Shown piece after piece: positions 17,462 through 48,334 of a stretch of 64,000 bases of DNA (position 1 is the first letter of the stretch; each line of letters begins with the position of its first letter). The stretch is from Octopus sinensis (lineage: Eukaryota): NCBI RefSeq assembly GCF_006345805.1, contig NC_043000.1, forward strand, positions 54,498,001-54,562,000, read 5' to 3'. A model generated the notes under the pieces. The model saw nothing but the letters and a program-made list of their open reading frames with translations, was not told where the DNA came from and did no database searches. A program made the position numbers and the translations under genes.

Positions 17462-18211
17462 ATACGTGGTCTGATGAATAGGTATCCGTACTGTTGGTAT
17501 AGTAACGATGCTAGAGCACGCAGAGTAAAGCCGCTTCGCACGCACAGATTGACCTTGAACTCCGATGTGCATGCATGCTCAGAGGCCTACGTAAAGTTTT
17601 CAAATAGTTTTCCTCGGTTTTAACACAAACAATGAGATCTATGCAACTGAAACCTAGGTGTCTTTTCGGTCAGCTTAAAGCAATTTTGGCACAAACTTGG
17701 CACACACGTGTCAAAACCAAATCTTCAGTAATAATGGACTGAACTGAACTGAACTGCAACTAATCTGCCCGTCCTCTGATAACTCACGGATGGTGATTCA
17801 ACGATTTTTCCTCTCAGCTGCACACACATCTACGATGTTTTCCTCAGTTCTTCTGGTTGCGGATCTCCCAGAACATTCGTCAATATCGACATTTTTTCGG
17901 CCGTCTTGGAAATGTCTGAACCACTTGTACACTTGTGTGCGGCGCATACACTCCTATTCATACACTTTCTGAAACTTTGCGTAGGCCTCTAAGCAGGTCT
18001 CCCCGTGACAACTTTCTCTATCGTGGTCAATGTAATGCTACACACCTTCCTTCCAAGCTCTGCTGTAAACAGCGAAATTGGTCTAGAACGTTAAATATTG
18101 GTGTGCTTGCACAGCAGAGCATAAGATCAATTTGTGTTTTGTGGCTTCGCTTTGCGTTCTTAAGCTTCGTCAAAATGGCAACAGTGTAGATACTTATTGA
18201 TCAGACCTCAA
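17462..18211 (-). mobile_element. Internally deleted mariner element
   Basis: TIRs are TACGTGGTCTGATGAATAGGTATCCGTACTGTTG / CAACAGTGTAGATACTTATTGATCAGACCTC. The minus strand encodes RTQVYKWFRHFQDGRKNVDIDECSGRS...ITIRELSED and RVCAKFVPKLL (WVPHEL-type motif). Confidence 0.88.
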
Positions 18212-18250
18212 ATGTGACCGCGTGTGTACCGTTGGCGATTTTTTTCCTCT

Positions 18251-18285
18251 GTTTCCGAGGAAGAGCTCCGCTTGAAACGTTAAAT
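18251..18285 (+). ncRNA. Minimal type I hammerhead-like motif, variant core (CCGAGGA plus extra A), family A
   Basis: GUUU-CCGAGGA-A-GAGC-UCC-GCUU-GAAAC-GUU-AAAU, inside repeat 18215-18385 that ends in (TA)n. Confidence 0.55.
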
Positions 18286-18473
18286 CCTCCTTCTTTCCTT
18301 CTTTCCTGAGCGTCCAATAATACTATATTTGTTCCACGTCCTCGCGATGTTGTGTTTTTTGTGCTTTCTTGTTTGGATCAACTATATATATATAATATTT
18401 GTCTTTTATAGAAACAAAAGGGTTTATAGGACTGCAAAAGAAGTGCTCAAATATAAGAGACGAAGATAAAGAA

Positions 18474-18510
<37 letters not shown>

Positions 18511-18740
18511 TAGATAGATAGATAGATATATATTTGAGTAGTTGAATTAATTATCTTATTAAGGATAATTCGAAAGATAACCGATACCTGGGTAGCAAAT
18601 TCACATCAGAAAGAACACGGTTGAAGCTACGTCCCTAGGGCATAGACTATGTGTCTTCGTGCGGAAATGTGTATGTTTATTTTAAAATTATAAGTATATG
18701 AAAGAATGGAGTTGATCGACTAGTTAACAAATATCCTTTA

Positions 18741-18823
18741 TTCTCGACATATGTTTCGAAGGCTGCATATTCCTAATTCCGAAGGAATAAGGAGTACATT
18801 ATGCAGATTTCTCATCAGGAAAA
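18741..18823 (-). ncRNA. Intact type I hammerhead ribozyme with a long helix II
   Basis: UUUUC-CUGAUGA-GAA.CUGCAUA..UCCUUAUUCC-UUC-GGAAUUAGGA..UAUGCAG.UUC-GAAAC-AUAU-GUC-GAGAA. All core nucleotides are present, the site is GUC and helix III is the palindrome ACAUAUGU. Confidence 0.88.
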
Positions 18824-18908
18824 TCAAGGAACTTATGTCGACATGAAAATGCACAAAAAGCTTTTAGCTGACCGCTCTCAAGGAGCCCATGGCGATAATG
18901 AGTGTCTC

Positions 18909-18927
18909 TTTATAAGGAGTGACGTCA
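18909..18927 (-). promoter_or_regulatory. Candidate CRE (TGACGTCA) plus TATA box upstream of the hammerhead
   Basis: Minus strand reads TGACGTCA-CTCCT-TATAAA, about 85 nt upstream of the ribozyme. Confidence 0.45.
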
Positions 18928-19075
18928 GAGTGGCTGAATGTAGAAGAATCTAGAAGGTTCTAAAGGTTCAAGGGTTCAAACCAAGTGGGAGGAGGGAGGC
19001 ATAAGAAAAGTAAGGTGAGAGAGTGCAGGTCAAAAGAATGGTGGGTTTAAATGTTTTCTTTTATGAATGAGTGCC

Positions 19076-19118
<43 letters not shown>

Positions 19119-19124
19119 GCTTCA

Positions 19125-19863
19125 AATTAGGGTTCAGCCAAAAAATTCACTTTACCACACACCGAAATTTTAGAAATAGCAGCCAAAGAATTTAGCTATT
19201 TCCTCTACTATAAGAAGAGTCTCCCAGACAATGTATATTCAAAAACAATTCACGTAGGCATAGAGGGAAAAATAACGAAAGATCACTTGTACATCGATTA
19301 CATGAGAACGCCGTTTCTGGGTTAGTTAGATATAGAGATTCTAGAAATACATACCTATATCAACATTCCTGGCATCAGCCCAAGATTTCGTTCAGTTTAA
19401 ATTTGAGAGCACTAAAAATCGAACATACCTGTCTGATTTGAGTAATCCCAGACGAAACCCCTTCGACCATTAGTACTAACGAATTCAAAACGTGAGAATG
19501 AGGCTTTGCATCCTTCCCCGTCCACCCACGTGAGTTATAGAGCAACAATTACCTACAGAGAGATCTGTAGTTTATTATCAGGGATGGCATTATATTGTCA
19601 ATAATAATAAGGGTAAAATTAATTAATTATTAATTAATAATTTTACCAAGCAGTGTTCAGTATGTAAAAAGACCATTTACGGTATGTTTAAAACATTACT
19701 TTATATAATTAGGGTTCAGCAAAAAAATTTACTTTACCACACACCGAACTTTGTGTGGTAAAGTATTTTTTTTGCTGAACCCTAATTATATAAAGTAATC
19801 TTTTAAACATACCGTAAATGGTCTTTTTACATACTGAACACAGCTTGGTAAAATTATTAATTA
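19125..19863. mobile_element. PLE-pLTR-like family G: partial direct repeat plus terminal fold-back palindrome
   Basis: ATTAGGGTTCAGC..ACTTTACCACACACCGAA occurs at about 19126 and 19708. Arms 19631-19742 and 19753-19863 are inverted. Homologous to 46307-46462 and 49795-50073. Confidence 0.75.
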
Positions 19864-19865
19864 CT

Positions 19866-22800
19866 ATATTTATATTTACTAATCTTGTCAAATTCTTTCG
19901 CCGCTATATTGTGATCACAAGGGATACTCATGTCAATTAATAAAGACATGTTTTTGTCTGATCTTTTATAATAATATCCGGTTTATTAGCTTTTATAGTC
20001 TTGTCGGTCTGTACGGGAAAGTTCCATAGAATCGGCACATTTTCTCCCTCAGTCACAGCTTCAAGATGTCGTTTATACCATTTGTCAGCGGTTTTGGTTT
20101 TATAATACCGACATATTGTCCTATGTAAATACTGGCCGACTCTGTCATGTCTTGCTTTATATTCTGCAGGTGCTAAGGCTCTACACCCTGGGATTAGGTG
20201 GTCAATTGTTTCAATCTCATCGTTACAGAATCGGCATTTTGGGTCAGCTCCATTTTTTATCACATTGGTTAGGTAGTTCCGGGTTAATAAGCTTTGGTCT
20301 TGAGCAGCTAATATGAAACCTTCACTCTCTGCTTTTAGCCCTGAGCTTCGTAACCATTGGTGCGTGTGTTTCTGGTCGACGTCAGCTTGTTTGCTACAGG
20401 CTACATACTTGCCATGGAGAGGTTTCTGTTCCCATCTGCTAGCTAAATTTCATGTGCTTTTGTCTTTGCAATTAACTTCATTTTTTTTTTGCAGCTGCAG
20501 TTGGCGCATCTCCTTCAGCCTGATCAATCTGGTGGGTAGCTAAGAGATCAGCAGCGAATTTTTTGCTCTCTTTCAGTTTTTTAGGTCTTTCATGTTTTTT
20601 AACAAGTTTTAGCATCCAATCGTTGGAAAACTTCACTCTATTCTGAAAGAGAGCAAAAAATTCGCTGCTGATCTCTTAGCTACCCACCAGATTGATCAGG
20701 CTGAAGGAGATGCGCCAACTGCAGCTGCAAAAAAAATGAAATTAATTGCAAAGACAAAAGCACATGAAAATTTAGCTAGCAGATGGGAACAGAAACCTCT
20801 CCATGGCAAGTATGTGGCCTGTAGCAAACAAGCTGATGTCGACCAGAAACACACGCACCAATGGTTACGAAGCTCAGGGCTAAAAGCAGAGAGTGAAGGT
20901 TTCATATTTAGCCAGTCCGATTGTGGTGGTTTTGTATGTAAGTTCAAGCTGGATCAAACCTCGACCTCCCTGAGCTCTGGGAAGGTAAAGGCGATCCACG
21001 TCTGCCTTTGGATGGTGCATCTTATTACAAGTCAGTAGCTTGCGGATTTTTCTGTCAATTTTCATTATTTCACTGGTATTCCAGTTAACCACATTGAAGC
21101 TATAAAGAACAACTGGTACTGCTAAGGAATTTATGACTAACACCTTATTATATGCATTCAGCTCAGACTTCAGGACTGCTCGAACTCTTCTATAACATTC
21201 CTTCCTAACCTTCTCTTTCATGCTTGCATGCTTGTTACGAGAGTCTTGATTTATTACTGTTTCGAAATCTAATTCGATTGAACTAGACTTTACCAATTTC
21301 CCTTTCTTAAAAGTGGCTTTGGCACACTTTTCAAGGCCAAACTCCATACCGATATAATCACTGAATCCTTTCACGGTATGTAATAATCCTTCAAGCTCTT
21401 CATCATTTTTGCCATATAGCTTTAAATCATCCATATAAAATAGATGGCTTATTTTCCTGTTGTCAATTTTGTAGCCATATCATGTACTATTCAGTTCATT
21501 TGAGAGTGGTATTAGTGCTATGCAAAAAATTAGTGGTGAAAGTGAGTCACCTTGGAAAATGCCACAGTTTATGCTAATGTTGTTTGAGCGCAATACCCCA
21601 TTAGAATGATATAATTGGAGCTTCGTGTTCCATAGTGACATATTATAATTTAAAAAATCTGAAATCACAGGAGAAATTTTGAAAATGTCCAGCGATTTCA
21701 GAATCCACGAATGCGGTATGCTGTCAAATTCTTTTTTTATAATCAATCCATGAAGAGCTGAGATATCTGCGCTTGTTATTGCAGTTCTCAAGGATCATGC
21801 GATTAATTAGGAGCTGATATTTGCATCCGTACGAGCCTCGTCTGCATCCTTTTTGTTCAGTGAGAAAGAGGTTATTCTCTTCCATAAATGTATGTTTTCT
21901 CTACTAGAATAGAAGTCAAAAAATCTTATAGGTGGTAGATAAACATGTTATAGGCCGGTAGTTTTTTGGGTCTTTCGTTTTGTTATTTTTGGGGAGGAGG
22001 TAAGTAATACCATTTGCCATCCAATGAGGTGTTTTTTCCTGGTCTTTCATAATACTATTAAATAGTATTACTAACATTTTGTGTGCAGACCAGAGTGATG
22101 AAAGCCAGAAATTTGGTACTCTATCAATACCAGGGGATTTCCACTTATGGGCCTTCGTTAGTGTCCTCCTTAAGTCGGTGATCGAGATGTCTTCCCATAC
22201 CTTTTCTTGTAGATTTTTGTAGGTATCTTGGGTGCGTTTGATCCAGTCTGCATTTTCATTGTACGGTTTCTCATCACTCCAGATCCCCTTCCAAAACTTT
22301 TCAACTTCTTCCATTAGGAGTGGATTTTCAATGGTTATTTTTTCTTTCCCTATTTCCCTGTAAAATGATTTGACATTATATTTGAACAACTTATTTTGTT
22401 TGTAGAATTTGTTTAAGTGTTTCTTTCGCTGACATTAGTTTTTCTCTTGTTGAGTGTCCATATTTTCTCACAATCTTGCTGCCTTTTCTTGATCTTACAT
22501 CATTTCCAGAGATTAGCTCAGTTAATATTGATATCTCCCTTCGCAATGATTCAATTTCAGTTTCAATTCTACTCCTCCAGTTTGATTTTCGTTTCGAATT
22601 TGGTATTGTTGACTTTTTGGGTGTTAAACAGTGTCTTTCGATTACCTTAGCGACAGAGTAAATAATTACATTTAATTCATTAAGATCGGGTTTTAGTTGG
22701 TGTATGATTTCTTGTGTAACGCAGTTGCCAATTTTTATTTGTGTTTTATGTTGGTGTGCATTTGAGAGTTTATGGAGTGGTTCCCTATCATTCATAGTTG

Positions 22801-23600
22801 TATGTCCTACAACTGCAAGCTCATTCAAAACTTCTTGCTTCATTTCAATGATAGATTTTCTGTGTTGTTCAACAAACATGTGGTCTTCAAATTCTGTTTC
22901 GACATCATTTTCCGGGCTGTTTTTTCTAGGGTCATTATATTTTCCTTTTTCTTCAGGATCTTGAGTCGTTTCGGCAGACGGTCGCCTTTCAGTCAATGCT
23001 TTTGACCCAACTTTCCTTTCCTCAGCTTCGTTATTTCTATCCTGACTTACATTTAGGTCATTCTATACCACTTTTTTAATAGAGGTTAAATCTGCATCTG
23101 TGAGTCTGGTATTTCTGAAGATATCTCTTCTAACATTTGGTAATCTGTTTTCATCCAGGTTTGGTCTGCTAGCTGGATTCCGGCTCCTCCAAATTCTGTA
23201 GGAGTTTGCGGTGTGTTTCTCTTGGGTTGGCCTACTTAATGCAAAGTAATAAGCATATATTACTTCTTTATATTCTTCCCGGTTCTATTTAGTTCTTTTA
23301 CTTTTTGATTTTTTGGTCGTCGTGGCGGTGAATTTTGGGGGCTTAATTTGGGACAAATACCGTTTAAGTGACCTTCCAGGAAGATATTCTGCCATTTGAA
23401 AATTTTTCGCCATCAGGCTGGCAGCTTCCTAACGGGCGCGCTTCCTGTATAACCATTGGACAAGCGATTTGGTGTACTGTTAGAAATTTTCTTTTCAAGT
23501 AAAGTTAAATATTTATTAAGTTTTCATTAAAAAAAATACCACTAATCTTCGTACAGGGGCCTCATTTATCATCATCAGCAGCAGCACCCCCAGTAGCTGT
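19866..23600 (-). mobile_element. Near full-length Dong/R4-clade non-LTR retrotransposon (RT plus restriction-like endonuclease), pseudogenised and 3'-truncated
   Basis: N-terminal EEYKEVIYAYY..IWRSRNP; RT motifs KSPGIDRVPNFW, NYRPITCL, FDSIPHSW, GIFQGDSLSP, (Y)MDDLKLY; CCHC knuckle CRFC..ETIDHLIPGC; RHD; KPDIII; IDMSIP. The 5' end abuts (TTA)n. Confidence 0.95.
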
Positions 23601-30230: not shown

Positions 30231-31139
30231 TATATACACATATGCATATATTATGTATATATATATATATATGTGTATACATGTATTATATATATATATA
30301 TATATATGCATTTATGCATATTTATATAATGTAGATATATATGTGTAAATATATATAAGTACATATACATATGTGTGTCTCTCTCTATATGTATATATAT
30401 AAAGAGAGAGAGAGAGAGAGAGAAAGAGATGAATAAATGAGTTAAACGCAGGTGTTATTTAAAATCTTTATACTTCCCACATACATTCCGAAGAAAACAT
30501 CGGTATTACTCTAGAGGGAATGAAATGATGTAATACAATGCGATCTGCTCATCAGGGGAAAAAGAGAAACAAAACATATCACTAAGCCATTTTACCCGAA
30601 TGCGGTAACTGCGTATATGATGAAGGGAACGTTTGCAAGTTATTTTCTTTTTAAAAAACTGTTAATGGATTTAAAGTCAAATGCAATTTAAAGAAAGGGA
30701 AGTAGGAGAATAAAACAAGAAATTAGCAGAAAAGCAAGAGTGGAGAAATGTAGTACGATAGATGAATGGGAATAAAGCTTAAAGGCGTGGAAATAGACAT
30801 ATTTAGTTAGAAGACATTTAAATGTTGAATTGTATAGATTGGTAGAAATTATTTATAGGAAATAAAGTTACGTTTTTGCCAATATTTGCAACGTTAAACG
30901 CGTTCCTTAAACGTGCTTACAAGAGAATTCTCTGAGAACAGGATGAGACAGAGTTCTTCGTTAGAGAGCGGACAAGAAGAATTACCTTTATCATATGGAA
31001 AGGACCTAGATAGAATATTCCATTCCAATCAAATTGTATATTACGTTCCTTCAGAGACCAAATTAATTTACGCAGTTCAGTATTGTTGGGTTTATTGATA
31101 TGTCTAAATTAGCCTCCCCATTTTTGCTTATATAAAAGA

Positions 31140-46462: not shown

Positions 46463-46597
46463 AATTGTTGAAATTATATATATATATATATAATATATAA
46501 TATATATAAAATATTATTCGAGACAAAACCACTATTTTGCAAAACAACAAGGAAAGACTTAATCAATACATAAATTTTAATAAATAGTCAAAAAACG

Positions 46598-46638
46598 CCA
46601 CTACAATCGTTTCTTGCTTGATCGACATCTTCAGGTGG
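46598..46638 (-). ncRNA. Type I hammerhead motif (left arm; core intact, helix II weakened)
   Basis: CCAC-CUGAAGA-UGUCGAUCAAGCAA-GAAAC-GAUU-GUA-GUGG. Confidence 0.65.
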
Positions 46639-46899
46639 ACTTCCAATAATTCAGTGTCAAATATCCTGTAAAAGAACTCGGAAGTTTAGGCCTCCAGTTA
46701 GACCATTCGCGACGCCTTTACAACCATGGACATTTCAGCACCACATAGTATGTACACCATAAATATTATATTGACAGACATCTCTACAATTTGAATACTA
46801 CTCTCGGACTATTTTTACCAATGAGAAATTATACAAGATCAAGATGACTGGTGGTTTTATATTAGTAAATTCAAGACTTTGACACTGAATTATTGAAGT

Positions 46900-46942
46900 C
46901 CACCTGAAGATTGTCGATCAAGACAAGAAACGATTGTAGTGG
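46900..46942 (+). ncRNA. Intact type I hammerhead ribozyme (right arm)
   Basis: CCAC-CUGAAGA-UUGUC-GAUCAA-GACAA-GAAAC-GAUU-GUA-GUGG. Helices I and II are perfect, the core is complete and the site is GUA. Confidence 0.85.
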
Positions 46943-48334
46943 CGGTTTTTTTGACTATTATTAAAATTTTATGTATTGATTAGTGCTTTCCTTGTTGTTT
47001 TGCAAAATAGTGGTTTTGACTCGAATAATATTTTATAATATTTTACTATAAAATCGATTTAATCCTAAATCTGATTTTTCCCTGTAAATTTGGATTTATT
47101 CCCTAATATTTATTATTATATATATATATATATATATATAATATATTATATATATATTATGACGGACTTCTTTCAGTTTCCGTCTACCAAATCCACTCAC
47201 AAGGCTTTGGGCGGACCGAGATTATAGTAGAAGACACTTGCACAAGGCGCCACGTAGTGGGACTGAACCCAGAACTATATGGTTGGTGAACAAGCATCTT
47301 ACCACACAGCCACTTCCGCGCCTATACACACACAGACACACAGACACACACACACACACCTATATATATATATATTTATATACATATATGCATATAAAAA
47401 GGTACACACACAAGAACGCATGCAAAGCTTCGATGCTCAGTGTTAAGTTGGTTCTATTTCAGAAAAAAGATGATAATCTATCCTATACAGTATCTTTTAA
47501 AGAACTAAACGACCAAATATTCAAATTTCCTCTATATTTTAATTCCTCTTTCTATTTGGTAAAATCAACGTTTCAAGGAAATTCTAATCTGTGATATTAC
47601 ATGAATAGACAGTGATAATACGCTTCCTTCCGATATGTGATTACGAATATTGCAGTTTTTTTAATCTTTTCAACGGCATTGGATACATGGAATTAATTTT
47701 TCCAACTCACATGTCATTATCATCATCTGTGTTTTTCCTATATTTTCATGCCAATACAAAACCATGTAAAAGACTGATGATAACGTCGTTCTCTGTTAGT
47801 TAGTATGGTTTACCGAGCATTCAAGCTATCTGATGTTAAATCCAAGCTGAGGAATGTGATATAACTAATCTCAAATGAAATTATTCTAACAAAGACGCGT
47901 GCCTTAAAGCCAATTTTGTCAACTACCTTCGATTCACGTTGAAACCATTTTTAAATGTCTACATAACTTCTGATATCGGTACCCATACTTCATATTGGGG
48001 TGTTTGTTCGTTTGGTATCGTATATAGAAGAATGGCTAGTAACTTTTTGAAGGCACCTGCAACCACATTGTGTAGGTTTCTTGACTATTTTAGCAGAGAA
48101 CGGACGGAATGTGGGCCTTTAAAACCTAAGCTATTGCAATACCTTGTCCTCACCTTAGGTGGGGTGAACAAAATTTAGAAAAACTCAAAATTTGCAGGCG
48201 TTTCTATGTTATTAGAAAACTTTTTGGGCCTCTGACCACTGCACTATTACAAATATTTTAGTATAATGACATCGGGTTGTTTCATGCTCTGCTGTTAGTT
48301 TGATTCTATGTTGCGACTACAGCTGAGAGCAGTA

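What the first reader, a model, noticed from the sequence alone, without database searches (positions are those of the whole stretch)
18530..19065. Compact CRE-TATA-hammerhead-polyA cassette with an intact ribozyme
Seen on the minus strand in order: TGACGTCA (18920-18927), TATAAA (18909-18914), a canonical hammerhead (CUGAUGA, GAAAC, GUC site), then AATAAA 3 nt after the cleavage site. Helix II is unusually long (about 54 nt, two stacked stems). Inference: this is a self-contained Pol II unit, possibly cAMP/CREB-responsive, whose RNA would be cut just before its polyA signal. It is the best candidate for an active ribozyme in the window.
Basis: partly seen in the sequence, partly recalled or inferred. 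Interest (0 to 1): 0.7.

Follow-up and report, generated by a model that had tools for sequence, protein, structure and literature searches.

The report
Long-armed hammerhead in Penelope retrotransposon end
This is the broken-off end of an abundant Penelope-like jumping gene, not a stand-alone gene: it carries a hammerhead motif with an unusually long side arm that is predicted to cut RNA only weakly and in pairs, and the element's RNA likely starts just after the 'TATA' word, at the same place in relatives that lack both 'promoter' words.

Summary
Window 18530-19085 (minus) is the terminal repeat (pLTR) of a 5'-truncated Penelope-like retrotransposon between (TA)n tracts. It matches at 542 of 556 bases a repeat flanking a telomerase-like RT plus GIY-YIG reading frame. 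The genome holds 7,344 such hammerheads, control 0. The 54-nt helix II covaries. Stem III is a self-complementary 8-mer, which predicts dimer cleavage. 5' ends of copies pile up at 18895-18904 (23 of 50 at risk), a likely capped start 10-15 nt after TATAAA, not 25-30. A subfamily lacking CRE and TATA uses the same site (6 of 30). Copies run through the cut site and past AATAAA; about 1% start at the cut, so templates are mostly uncut. Cleavage and CREB response are untested. Penelope hammerheads are known; the long arm exceeds the published Hydra-clade motifs I saw. This scan noted the same design earlier on other DNA. Verdict: a new variant of a known kind.

The parts
18530..19085 (-). pLTR (3' end plus tail) of a 5'-truncated Penelope-like retrotransposon; its 5' end lies in the element's own CA tract
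   Evidence: 542 of 556 identical to the 5' pLTR of full-length L031 and 540 of 556 to the 3' pLTR of L054; flanks
19092..19118 (.). (TA)n target tract, 5' side
18476..18533 (.). (TA)n/(TATC)n target tract, 3' side
   Evidence: sister copies join (TA)n at the same base
18920..18927 (-). TGACGTCA (CRE-like), -28 to -21 from the inferred start; dispensable in the family
   Evidence: perfect in 3 of 11 diverged pLTRs
18909..18914 (-). TATAAA, -15 to -10 from the inferred start, not at a canonical TATA distance in this subfamily
   Evidence: present in 2 of 11 diverged pLTRs
18895..18904 (-). inferred transcription start (mode A18899, TC-A-TT; minor A18903)
   Evidence: 23 of 50 copies at risk end here; 7 at 18899, 5 of them after a G where the template has C; same site in the CRE/TATA-less subfamily
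18874..18891 (-). conserved CATGGGCTC...GAGC motif (possible GCTC/GAGC hairpin or internal promoter element)
   Evidence: kept in all 12 aligned pLTRs that cover it, better than CRE or TATA; function untested
18735..18829 (-). type I hammerhead: stem I 18829-18819 with 18745-18735 (10 of 11 pairs), core CUGAUGA 18818-18812, GAAA 18757-18754, predicted cut after C18746
18758..18811 (-). 54-nt helix II: basal 3 bp, 7-bp stem, internal loop, two upper stems
   Evidence: 8 of 12 lower pairs show two-sided changes across 17 variants; z -3.3
18747..18754 (-). stem/loop III palindrome ACATATGT, predicted to pair between two ribozymes
   Evidence: duplex -7.0 against monomer hairpin +2.4 kcal/mol; variants stay self-pairing
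18737..18742 (-). AATAAA inside the 3' arm of stem I
   Evidence: AATAAA within 9 nt of the cut in 13 of 17 variants, AGTAAA or TATAAA in the other 4 (by eye)
18530..18700 (-). optional tail: copies end at 18663-18700 (short) or 18528-18545 (tail), inferred to be two reverse-transcription start zones
   Evidence: 53 short and 44 tail of 100; 17 of 21 inverted pairs have one of each

Best explanation
The stretch is the terminal repeat of a 5'-truncated copy of an endonuclease-bearing Penelope-like retrotransposon inserted in (TA)n, and its long-armed hammerhead is predicted to cut only weakly and only when two copies pair through their palindromic stem III. Shown: identity with repeats flanking an RT plus GIY-YIG reading frame, (TA)n junctions, two 3' end zones, head-to-head pairs, covariation of helix II, and a self-pairing stem III in all subfamilies. 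Inferred: in a full element Pol II starts at the base matching 18899, set by the initiator or downstream sequence rather than by CRE or TATA. The RNA would run through the hammerhead, AATAAA and the tail into the reading frame. The element's protein would nick (TA)n and start copying inside the uncut RNA at two places, giving pairs with one short and one tailed arm. Copies that reach the capped 5' end stop at 18899. The window copy reaches 186 nt further upstream, so it likely came from the downstream repeat of a read-through RNA. As a lone copy it could cut only with a second RNA in trans.
For: L031 is pLTR - RT frame - GIY-YIG frame - pLTR, repeats 3,251 nt apart; relatives keep single 896-908 aa frames between repeats. 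The AlphaFold model (pLDDT 80) matches telomerase RTs best (E 3.5e-9). DKT, KDHK, Y.DD, YIG and CxxC..E/CxH are in 4 of 4 own proteins. 7,344 hammerheads; 599 with the window's exact 34-mer. Helix II: 12 of 28 pairs with two-sided changes, 0 of 500 shuffles as high, slid controls 3-8. The loop-III dinucleotide is TA, CG or TG in 98 of the first 100 matches (by eye). About ten unrelated hammerhead families met by chance have self-pairing tetramers, bar two single-copy variants. 5' ends: 5.9 per 100 copy-nt at 18895-18904 against 0.45 downstream and 0.14-0.30 upstream. Cut-site starts: 11 real junctions against 2,127 intact. Literature: pLTR hammerheads do not cut as monomers and cut weakly as dimers (PMC4209133); uncut RNA is the main substrate and RT starts at two internal sites (PMC11167929).
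Against: No cleavage, CAGE or expression data: the runs were contigs only and not on record as RNA. The cap-G sign is thin: 7 G's, of which 3 could come from the partner arm by microhomology (by eye); the 23 ends include one internal deletion and one duplicated pair. A weaker cluster of 6 ends at 18876-18885 (1.0 per 100 copy-nt, no G sign) lies where a TATA-directed start would be. In the sister subfamily a 13-nt insertion puts TATAA at about -28, so a TATA role is not excluded there. Cut-site starts are about twice background (about 0.9% after correcting for the pattern, against 0.45%), so some cutting may occur. The 17 aligned variants are related, so covariation counts few events. Pfam gave no RT or GIY-YIG hit for the element's own proteins; only 4 and 3 of 77 alignment members hit.
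Confidence: 0.82

Rival explanations
1. One reading: a self-contained, CRE/TATA-driven Pol II unit making a short RNA that the ribozyme cuts just before its poly(A) signal, possibly under cAMP control.
For: Motif order is real. The CRE is perfect in two pLTRs only about 70% identical to the window (L044, L059). AATAAA or a variant follows the cut in all 17 variants. The window copy keeps the whole promoter region, which only 25 of 100 copies do, so it could be transcribed alone.
Against: It is a retrotransposon repeat. The inferred start is 10-15 nt after TATAAA and is shared by a subfamily without CRE or TATA; that subfamily's ACACGTGT type makes up 44 of the first 100 matches. Copies pass the cut and AATAAA and carry no poly(A). 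Stem III cannot form stably in a monomer.
Confidence: 0.07
2. The hammerhead cuts well in cells, with the two repeats of one RNA pairing or with help from the element's protein. It releases a unit-length or circular RNA, or an uncapped mRNA; cut RNAs are simply poor templates and leave little trace in DNA.
For: Core and cut triplet are kept across subfamilies with pLTRs 66-70% identical. The palindrome is conserved. The Anolis ribozyme cuts once its protein is added (PMC11167929). Cutting would remove 6 of 8, 4 of 4 and 2 of 5 upstream AUGs in L031, L044 and L047. Ribozyme cleavage can start cap-independent translation in viruses (PMC13725137, abstract).
Against: Cut-site 5' ends are at most about twice background. 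L047 keeps 3 upstream AUGs after the cut. Frangieh et al. saw no reads ending at the cut in Anolis (PMC11167929). No circular joint was seen in contigs, which cannot show absence.
Confidence: 0.3
3. The motif no longer cuts; the long helix II and the palindrome are kept as a binding or dimerisation signal for the element's protein.
For: Helix II is the best-supported part of the fold. No clear cleavage footprint in DNA. Ribozyme mutants did not impair insertion in vitro in Anolis (PMC11167929).
Against: All catalytic positions are invariant in 17 variants, and only the free core position and the cut base vary (A, C or U, never G), as expected of a motif kept for catalysis.
Confidence: 0.12

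Closest known systems
Hydra clade of C-terminal-endonuclease Penelope-like elements, e.g. Hydra-1_Obim (Craig et al. 2021, PMC8557442; seen: abstract, passages, section 11, supplement search rows and part 2 of 59)
   Same: RT then GIY-YIG; DKT and KDHK motifs; no CCHH; CxxC and CxH around the conserved E and N; (TA)n targets; hammerhead in the pLTR with a short self-complementary stem III. The RT reads alike to Hydra-1_Obim by eye.
   Different: No CxCX5C linker finger (0 of 4 own proteins; 12 of 23 long homologs have it); RW but not RWK; two low-complexity linker insertions; unit 3.25-3.67 kb rather than under 3 kb; 54-55 nt between the core halves against about 11-26 nt in the listed Hydra motifs (by eye); tail about 150 nt rather than 30-40.
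[quoted passage not shown]
   Same: Type I topology in both repeats, palindromic positions 15.2-16.2 and loop 3, mostly lone copies from truncated elements, inverted neighbours 100-700 bp apart, predicted dimer cleavage.
   Different: Their 'larger than usual' helix II is 7-8 bp; here it is a 54-nt multi-stem arm. No bulged base between core position 9 and 10.1. Long helix II has a precedent in two spike-moss PLE-X elements.
Poseidon PAc of Anolis (Frangieh et al. 2024, PMC11167929; seen: parts 1-2 of 4 and passages)
   Same: Two internal RT start sites that define an optional tail; AT-rich targets; uncut RNA as template.
   Different: There the ribozyme overlaps the start codon and RT starts inside the reading frame; here the cut is 263 nt upstream of the ATG and both end zones lie in the leader.
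Drosophila virilis Penelope promoter (PMC2377424, passages) and Adineta Pen2a pLTR (PMC3846280, passages)
   Same: Transcription starts inside the pLTR; Penelope uses a TATA-less internal promoter; a TATA plus initiator-like word was already noted in a rotifer pLTR.
   Different: No conserved leader intron found here; a CRE-like word in some subfamilies.
Clec2 3' UTR hammerhead (as reviewed in PMC6765202, passages)
   Different: That is a single host-gene ribozyme; this is a mobile repeat whose copied RNA reads through both sites.

Membership tests
Penelope-like elements, C-terminal EN+ | Telomerase-like RT followed by a GIY-YIG endonuclease in one frame | tested here: met
   896-908 aa frames, Y.DD and YIG in 4 of 4, best fold matches are telomerases; Pfam weak
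Penelope-like elements, C-terminal EN+ | Direct and inverted pLTRs, optional tail at one end | tested here: met
   direct repeats in L031, L044, L047, L048; 17 of 21 inverted pairs have one tail and one short end
Penelope-like elements, C-terminal EN+ | Hammerhead in the pLTR | tested here: met
Hydra clade | DKT in place of DKG; no CCHH; CxxC and CxH beside E and N | tested here: met
   4 of 4, alignment A1
Hydra clade | Insertion into (TA)n | tested here: met
   3' junctions
Hydra clade | RWK motif | tested here: inconclusive
   RW kept in 3 of 4 (the fourth frame starts downstream), K/R lost in all
Hydra clade | CxCX5C linker finger | tested here: not met
   0 of 4 own proteins against 12 of 23 long homologs; filed as a Hydra-like lineage, not as a member
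Hydra clade | Length generally under 3 kb | tested here: not met
   repeat spacing 3,251 nt (L031) and 3,674 nt (L044)
Hydra clade | RT groups with named Hydra families in a tree | not tested
   the named reference proteins were seen only as supplement text; compared by eye
Naiad/Chlamys | N-terminal endonuclease, no canonical hammerhead | tested here: not met
   endonuclease is C-terminal; hammerhead present
Type I hammerhead ribozyme | Core CUGANGA...GAAA...UH with stems I and II | tested here: met
   invariant in 17 variants; stem I probability 0.93 alone, 0.26-0.81 in longer contexts
Type I hammerhead ribozyme | Stable stem III in a monomer | tested here: not met
   +2.4 kcal/mol as hairpin, -7.0 as duplex; fits the dimer class
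Type I hammerhead ribozyme | Self-cleavage | not testable with these tools
   indirect only: about 1% of copies start at the cut
Non-LTR retrozymes | Head-to-tail tandem units each with a hammerhead | tested here: not met
   single copy in the window; neighbours are inverted pairs or 3-kb elements
TATA-directed Pol II promoter | Start 25-30 nt downstream of TATA (rule recalled) | tested here: not met
   inferred start 10-15 nt after TATAAA; indirect, with a weak second cluster at 18876-18885

The most novel reading that the evidence does not exclude
The long-armed, dimer-only hammerhead is a switch in the element's 5' leader. When two element RNAs meet, cutting removes the cap and most upstream AUGs and commits that RNA to cap-independent translation, while uncut RNAs are kept as templates. 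The 54-nt arm is the platform that the element's protein or the ribosome binds, in a lineage that targets (TA)n without the linker zinc finger thought to do so.
Probability: 0.12. Interest if true: 0.7.

Novelty: new variant of a known kind. Interest (0 to 1): 0.35.

Why it matters
The role of hammerheads in Penelope-like elements is still open (PMC8557442, discussion passage). This family offers thousands of young copies, subfamilies with compensatory changes, and a start site, cut site and two RT start zones that can be read from DNA junctions, so cutting, dimer dependence and template choice can be tested directly. The long arm escapes Rfam and exceeds the 7-17 nt spacer of one published core search (PMC8557442 methods), so ribozyme counts in such genomes are likely too low. 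The cAMP-responsive cassette reading is unlikely. Interest is moderate because the element class, its ribozyme and the dimer model are published, and this scan has already noted the long arm on other DNA.

Tried and rejected
Rfam scan of the window: 0 hits. Pfam on the element's own proteins: no RT or nuclease family. PDB sequence search: 0 with 8 sequences, one weak retron RT hit with 77. First AlphaFold run on 8 sequences was unusable, pLDDT 33. Run search: no RNA holder listed on record; rows were guesses and contigs. Laying 4 runs on the window copy and 4 on the L031 repeat-ORF junction showed cover but cannot show starts, ends or strand; no GT-AG or back-spliced joint appeared; not used as evidence. 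Leader intron: a conserved CAG|GTATCG looked like a donor, but the TTAACAG before the ATG is TTAACCG or TTAACCA in 9 of 11; unsupported. An upstream TCGACATA can pair with the cut-site strand and lowers stem I to 0.26 in one context, but it is absent from diverged subfamilies; not taken as a designed switch, though it matters for construct design. Naiad membership and tandem retrozyme were rejected (membership table). CRE conservation among young copies was rejected as a test, since it equals background and 30 loci were chosen by likeness to a query holding the CRE. The first 5'-end pass gave false clusters from a sister subfamily and was redone with three references. Lunse et al. 2017 was not held; known to me only through PMC6765202. 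Literature searches that found no description of this long arm in Penelope elements of such a genome; subscription papers, Repbase/Dfam entries, 58 of 59 supplement parts of PMC8557442 (seen only as search rows) and other papers' supplements were not read and may bear on novelty.

Full report
Observation. Every motif is at the stated place on the minus strand: TGACGTCA 18920-18927, TATAAA 18909-18914, CTGATGA 18812-18818, a 54-nt helix II, GAAAC 18753-18757, GTC 18746-18748 and AATAAA 18737-18742. Helix II folds better than 198 of 200 shuffles. Rfam does not detect it. The promoter words are common: one TGACGTCA, 145 TATAAA and 176 AATAAA in the window.

What the stretch is. A search of the own genome G000 (2.72 Gb; organism not determined here) returned 40 scored copies at 97-100% identity out of 1,895 candidates. 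Shared sequence runs from 19085 to 18530, between (TA)n tracts. [quoted passage not shown] The window copy matches the upstream repeat at 542 of 556 bases. Relatives keep single frames of 896-908 aa with repeats on one or both sides. An AlphaFold model on 77 sequences (pLDDT 80) matches telomerase RTs best. Pfam gave nothing for the own proteins and only 4 RT and 3 GIY-YIG hits among 77 alignment members. The motifs DKT, KDHK and CxxC..E..N..CxH and the (TA)n targets fit the Hydra clade as described in PMC8557442 (section 11), and the RT reads like Hydra-1_Obim by eye. The CxCX5C finger is absent (0 of 4; 12 of 23 long homologs have it) and the unit is longer. I file it as a Penelope-like element of a Hydra-like lineage, not formally in the clade.

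The ribozyme. A degenerate pattern finds 7,344 long-armed cores, control 0; 599 carry the window's exact 34-mer. Across 17 chosen variants the catalytic positions are invariant. 12 of 28 pairs change on both sides, 8 of them among the 12 lower pairs of helix II; no shuffle of 500 reaches this and slid controls give 3-8. The variants are related, so this counts few events. The stem III 8-mer is ACATATGT, ACATGTGT or ACACGTGT, all able to pair with a second copy; the duplex is -7.0 kcal/mol and the monomer hairpin +2.4. In the first 100 genome matches the free dinucleotide is TA 42, CG 44, TG 12, other 2 (counted by eye). About ten unrelated hammerhead families met by chance in the loci also have self-pairing tetramers, bar two single-copy variants, and most have arms of 43-85 nt. 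This is the dimer design of PMC4209133 (parts 1-2 read), where monomers did not cut and dimers cut weakly. The Hydra motifs listed in the supplement of PMC8557442 have about 11-26 nt between the core halves; two spike-moss elements have long arms.

Where the RNA starts. I took the first 100 of 599 copies by position. With three references, 23 of 50 copies at risk end at 18895-18904: 5.9 per 100 copy-nt against 0.45 downstream and 0.14-0.30 upstream. The 23 include one internal deletion and one duplicated pair. Seven end at 18899, five after a G where the template has C, and both ends at 18903 also follow a G. An extra G is the expected mark of a copied cap (recalled); three of the seven G's could come from the partner arm. 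TATAAA then lies at -15 to -10. Six ends at 18876-18885 form a weak second cluster without the G. In the sister subfamily a 13-nt insertion moves the CRE away and puts TATAA near -28, and the mode is unchanged. In 49 cores from 40 regions that I chose from the subfamilies mostly lacking both words, 6 of 30 at risk end in the equivalent 10 nt, while 3 of the other 24 end in the next 190 nt (counted by eye). A start fixed relative to the conserved CATGGGCTC...GAGC motif fits an initiator or internal promoter, as shown for Drosophila Penelope (PMC2377424, passages).

CRE and TATA. Among young copies the CRE is intact in 34 of 40 and TATAAA in 37 of 40, but CRE divergence equals background (1.9% against 1.8%). 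In 11 diverged repeats that cover the site the CRE is perfect in 3, one mismatch off in 3, lost in 5; TATAAA is in 2. Its survival in two repeats about 70% identical leaves room for a modulating role.

Where the RNA ends, and whether it is cut. Of 100 copies, 53 end at 18663-18700 and 44 at 18528-18545, joined to (TA)n without poly(A); 3 were unresolved or other. These copies were chosen by a pattern spanning the cut, so they cannot count cut RNAs. A separate genome-wide count gave 14 matches lacking the two bases before the cut against 2,127 with them; 11 of the 14 are real junctions. Corrected for what the pattern can see, that is about 0.9% against a background of 0.45% per base. Templates are therefore almost all uncut and read 40 to over 200 nt past AATAAA. 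17 of 21 inverted pairs have one short and one tailed arm, as expected from two internal RT starts (PMC11167929, parts 1-2 read); the tail here is about 150 nt. AATAAA or a variant still follows the cut in all 17 variants, so it may end some mRNAs; this is untested.

Mechanism. Shown: repeat identity, targets, end zones, covariation, palindrome. Inferred: capped start at 18899, read-through into the frame 416 nt on, copying from uncut RNA at two internal sites, weak cutting in dimers. The window copy extends beyond the start, so it likely derives from the downstream repeat of a read-through RNA. It keeps the promoter region, but whether it is transcribed is unknown (searches gave no usable evidence). 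The leader holds 8 upstream AUGs in L031, 6 before the cut; 4 of 4 in L044; 2 of 5 in L047. With the report that ribozyme cleavage can start translation (PMC13725137, abstract only), this gives the bolder reading, at low odds.

Novelty. The class, its hammerheads, the dimer model, the tail and the pLTR promoter are published. I found no paper on this long arm in such elements, within the limits of the library. The preprint 10.64898/2026.07.22.740005 (part 1 of 5 read) links animal retrozymes to pLTRs. Notes of this scan already describe long-armed hammerheads in Hydra-like elements on other DNA; they are leads, not support. Verdict: new variant of a known kind, interest 0.35.

Noticed in passing
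window 46520-47100: Head-to-head pair of another repeat family between (TA)n tracts, each arm with a short-armed hammerhead (cores at 46634 minus and 46904 plus; stem I CCAC/GTGG, loop III GATT); the plus copy looks intact.
   Followed up: partly
window 16417 (minus): Decayed hammerhead-like core with a broken helix II.
   Followed up: no
window 19613-19799 and 19125-19170: 188-bp near-perfect palindrome just upstream of the element, with a 46-bp copy of one arm next to the (TA)n tract; perhaps a hairpin MITE.
   Followed up: no
window 19114-19123 and 18471-18480: The flanks beyond the (TA)n tracts are short inverted repeats (GAAGC / GCTTC), with no direct target duplication; may be chance.
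   Followed up: no
window 17800-18100 (minus) and 18232-18398: Sequence resembling a mariner transposase start (by eye, recalled, untested), and a short repeat shared with 6 loci.
   Followed up: no
window 20310-20450 / 20768-20908: 141-bp, 99% inverted repeat inside what reads as a LINE reverse-transcriptase relic at about 19940-23060 (label by eye); possibly an inversion within the relic.
   Followed up: no
window 30858-31028 (minus): Relic of the C-terminal end of a related Penelope endonuclease, 42% identical over 57 aa.
   Followed up: no
L044 and relatives, protein residues 490-557 and 632-760: Two low-confidence, Asn-enriched (17% against 10% overall) linker insertions and loss of the CxCX5C finger, yet (TA)n targeting is kept; this weakens the proposed link between that finger and (TA)n targeting.
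   Followed up: partly
L007, L027, L034, L044, L054, L085, L087, L119, L141, L163, L190: Unrelated hammerhead families with arms of 43-85 nt, some branched, nearly all with self-pairing loop III.
   Followed up: partly
window 18578-18595 (minus): TTTGCTACCCAGGTATCGGTTA is among the best-kept stretches of the tail in all subfamilies; a splice donor was not supported, a protein-binding site is possible.
   Followed up: partly
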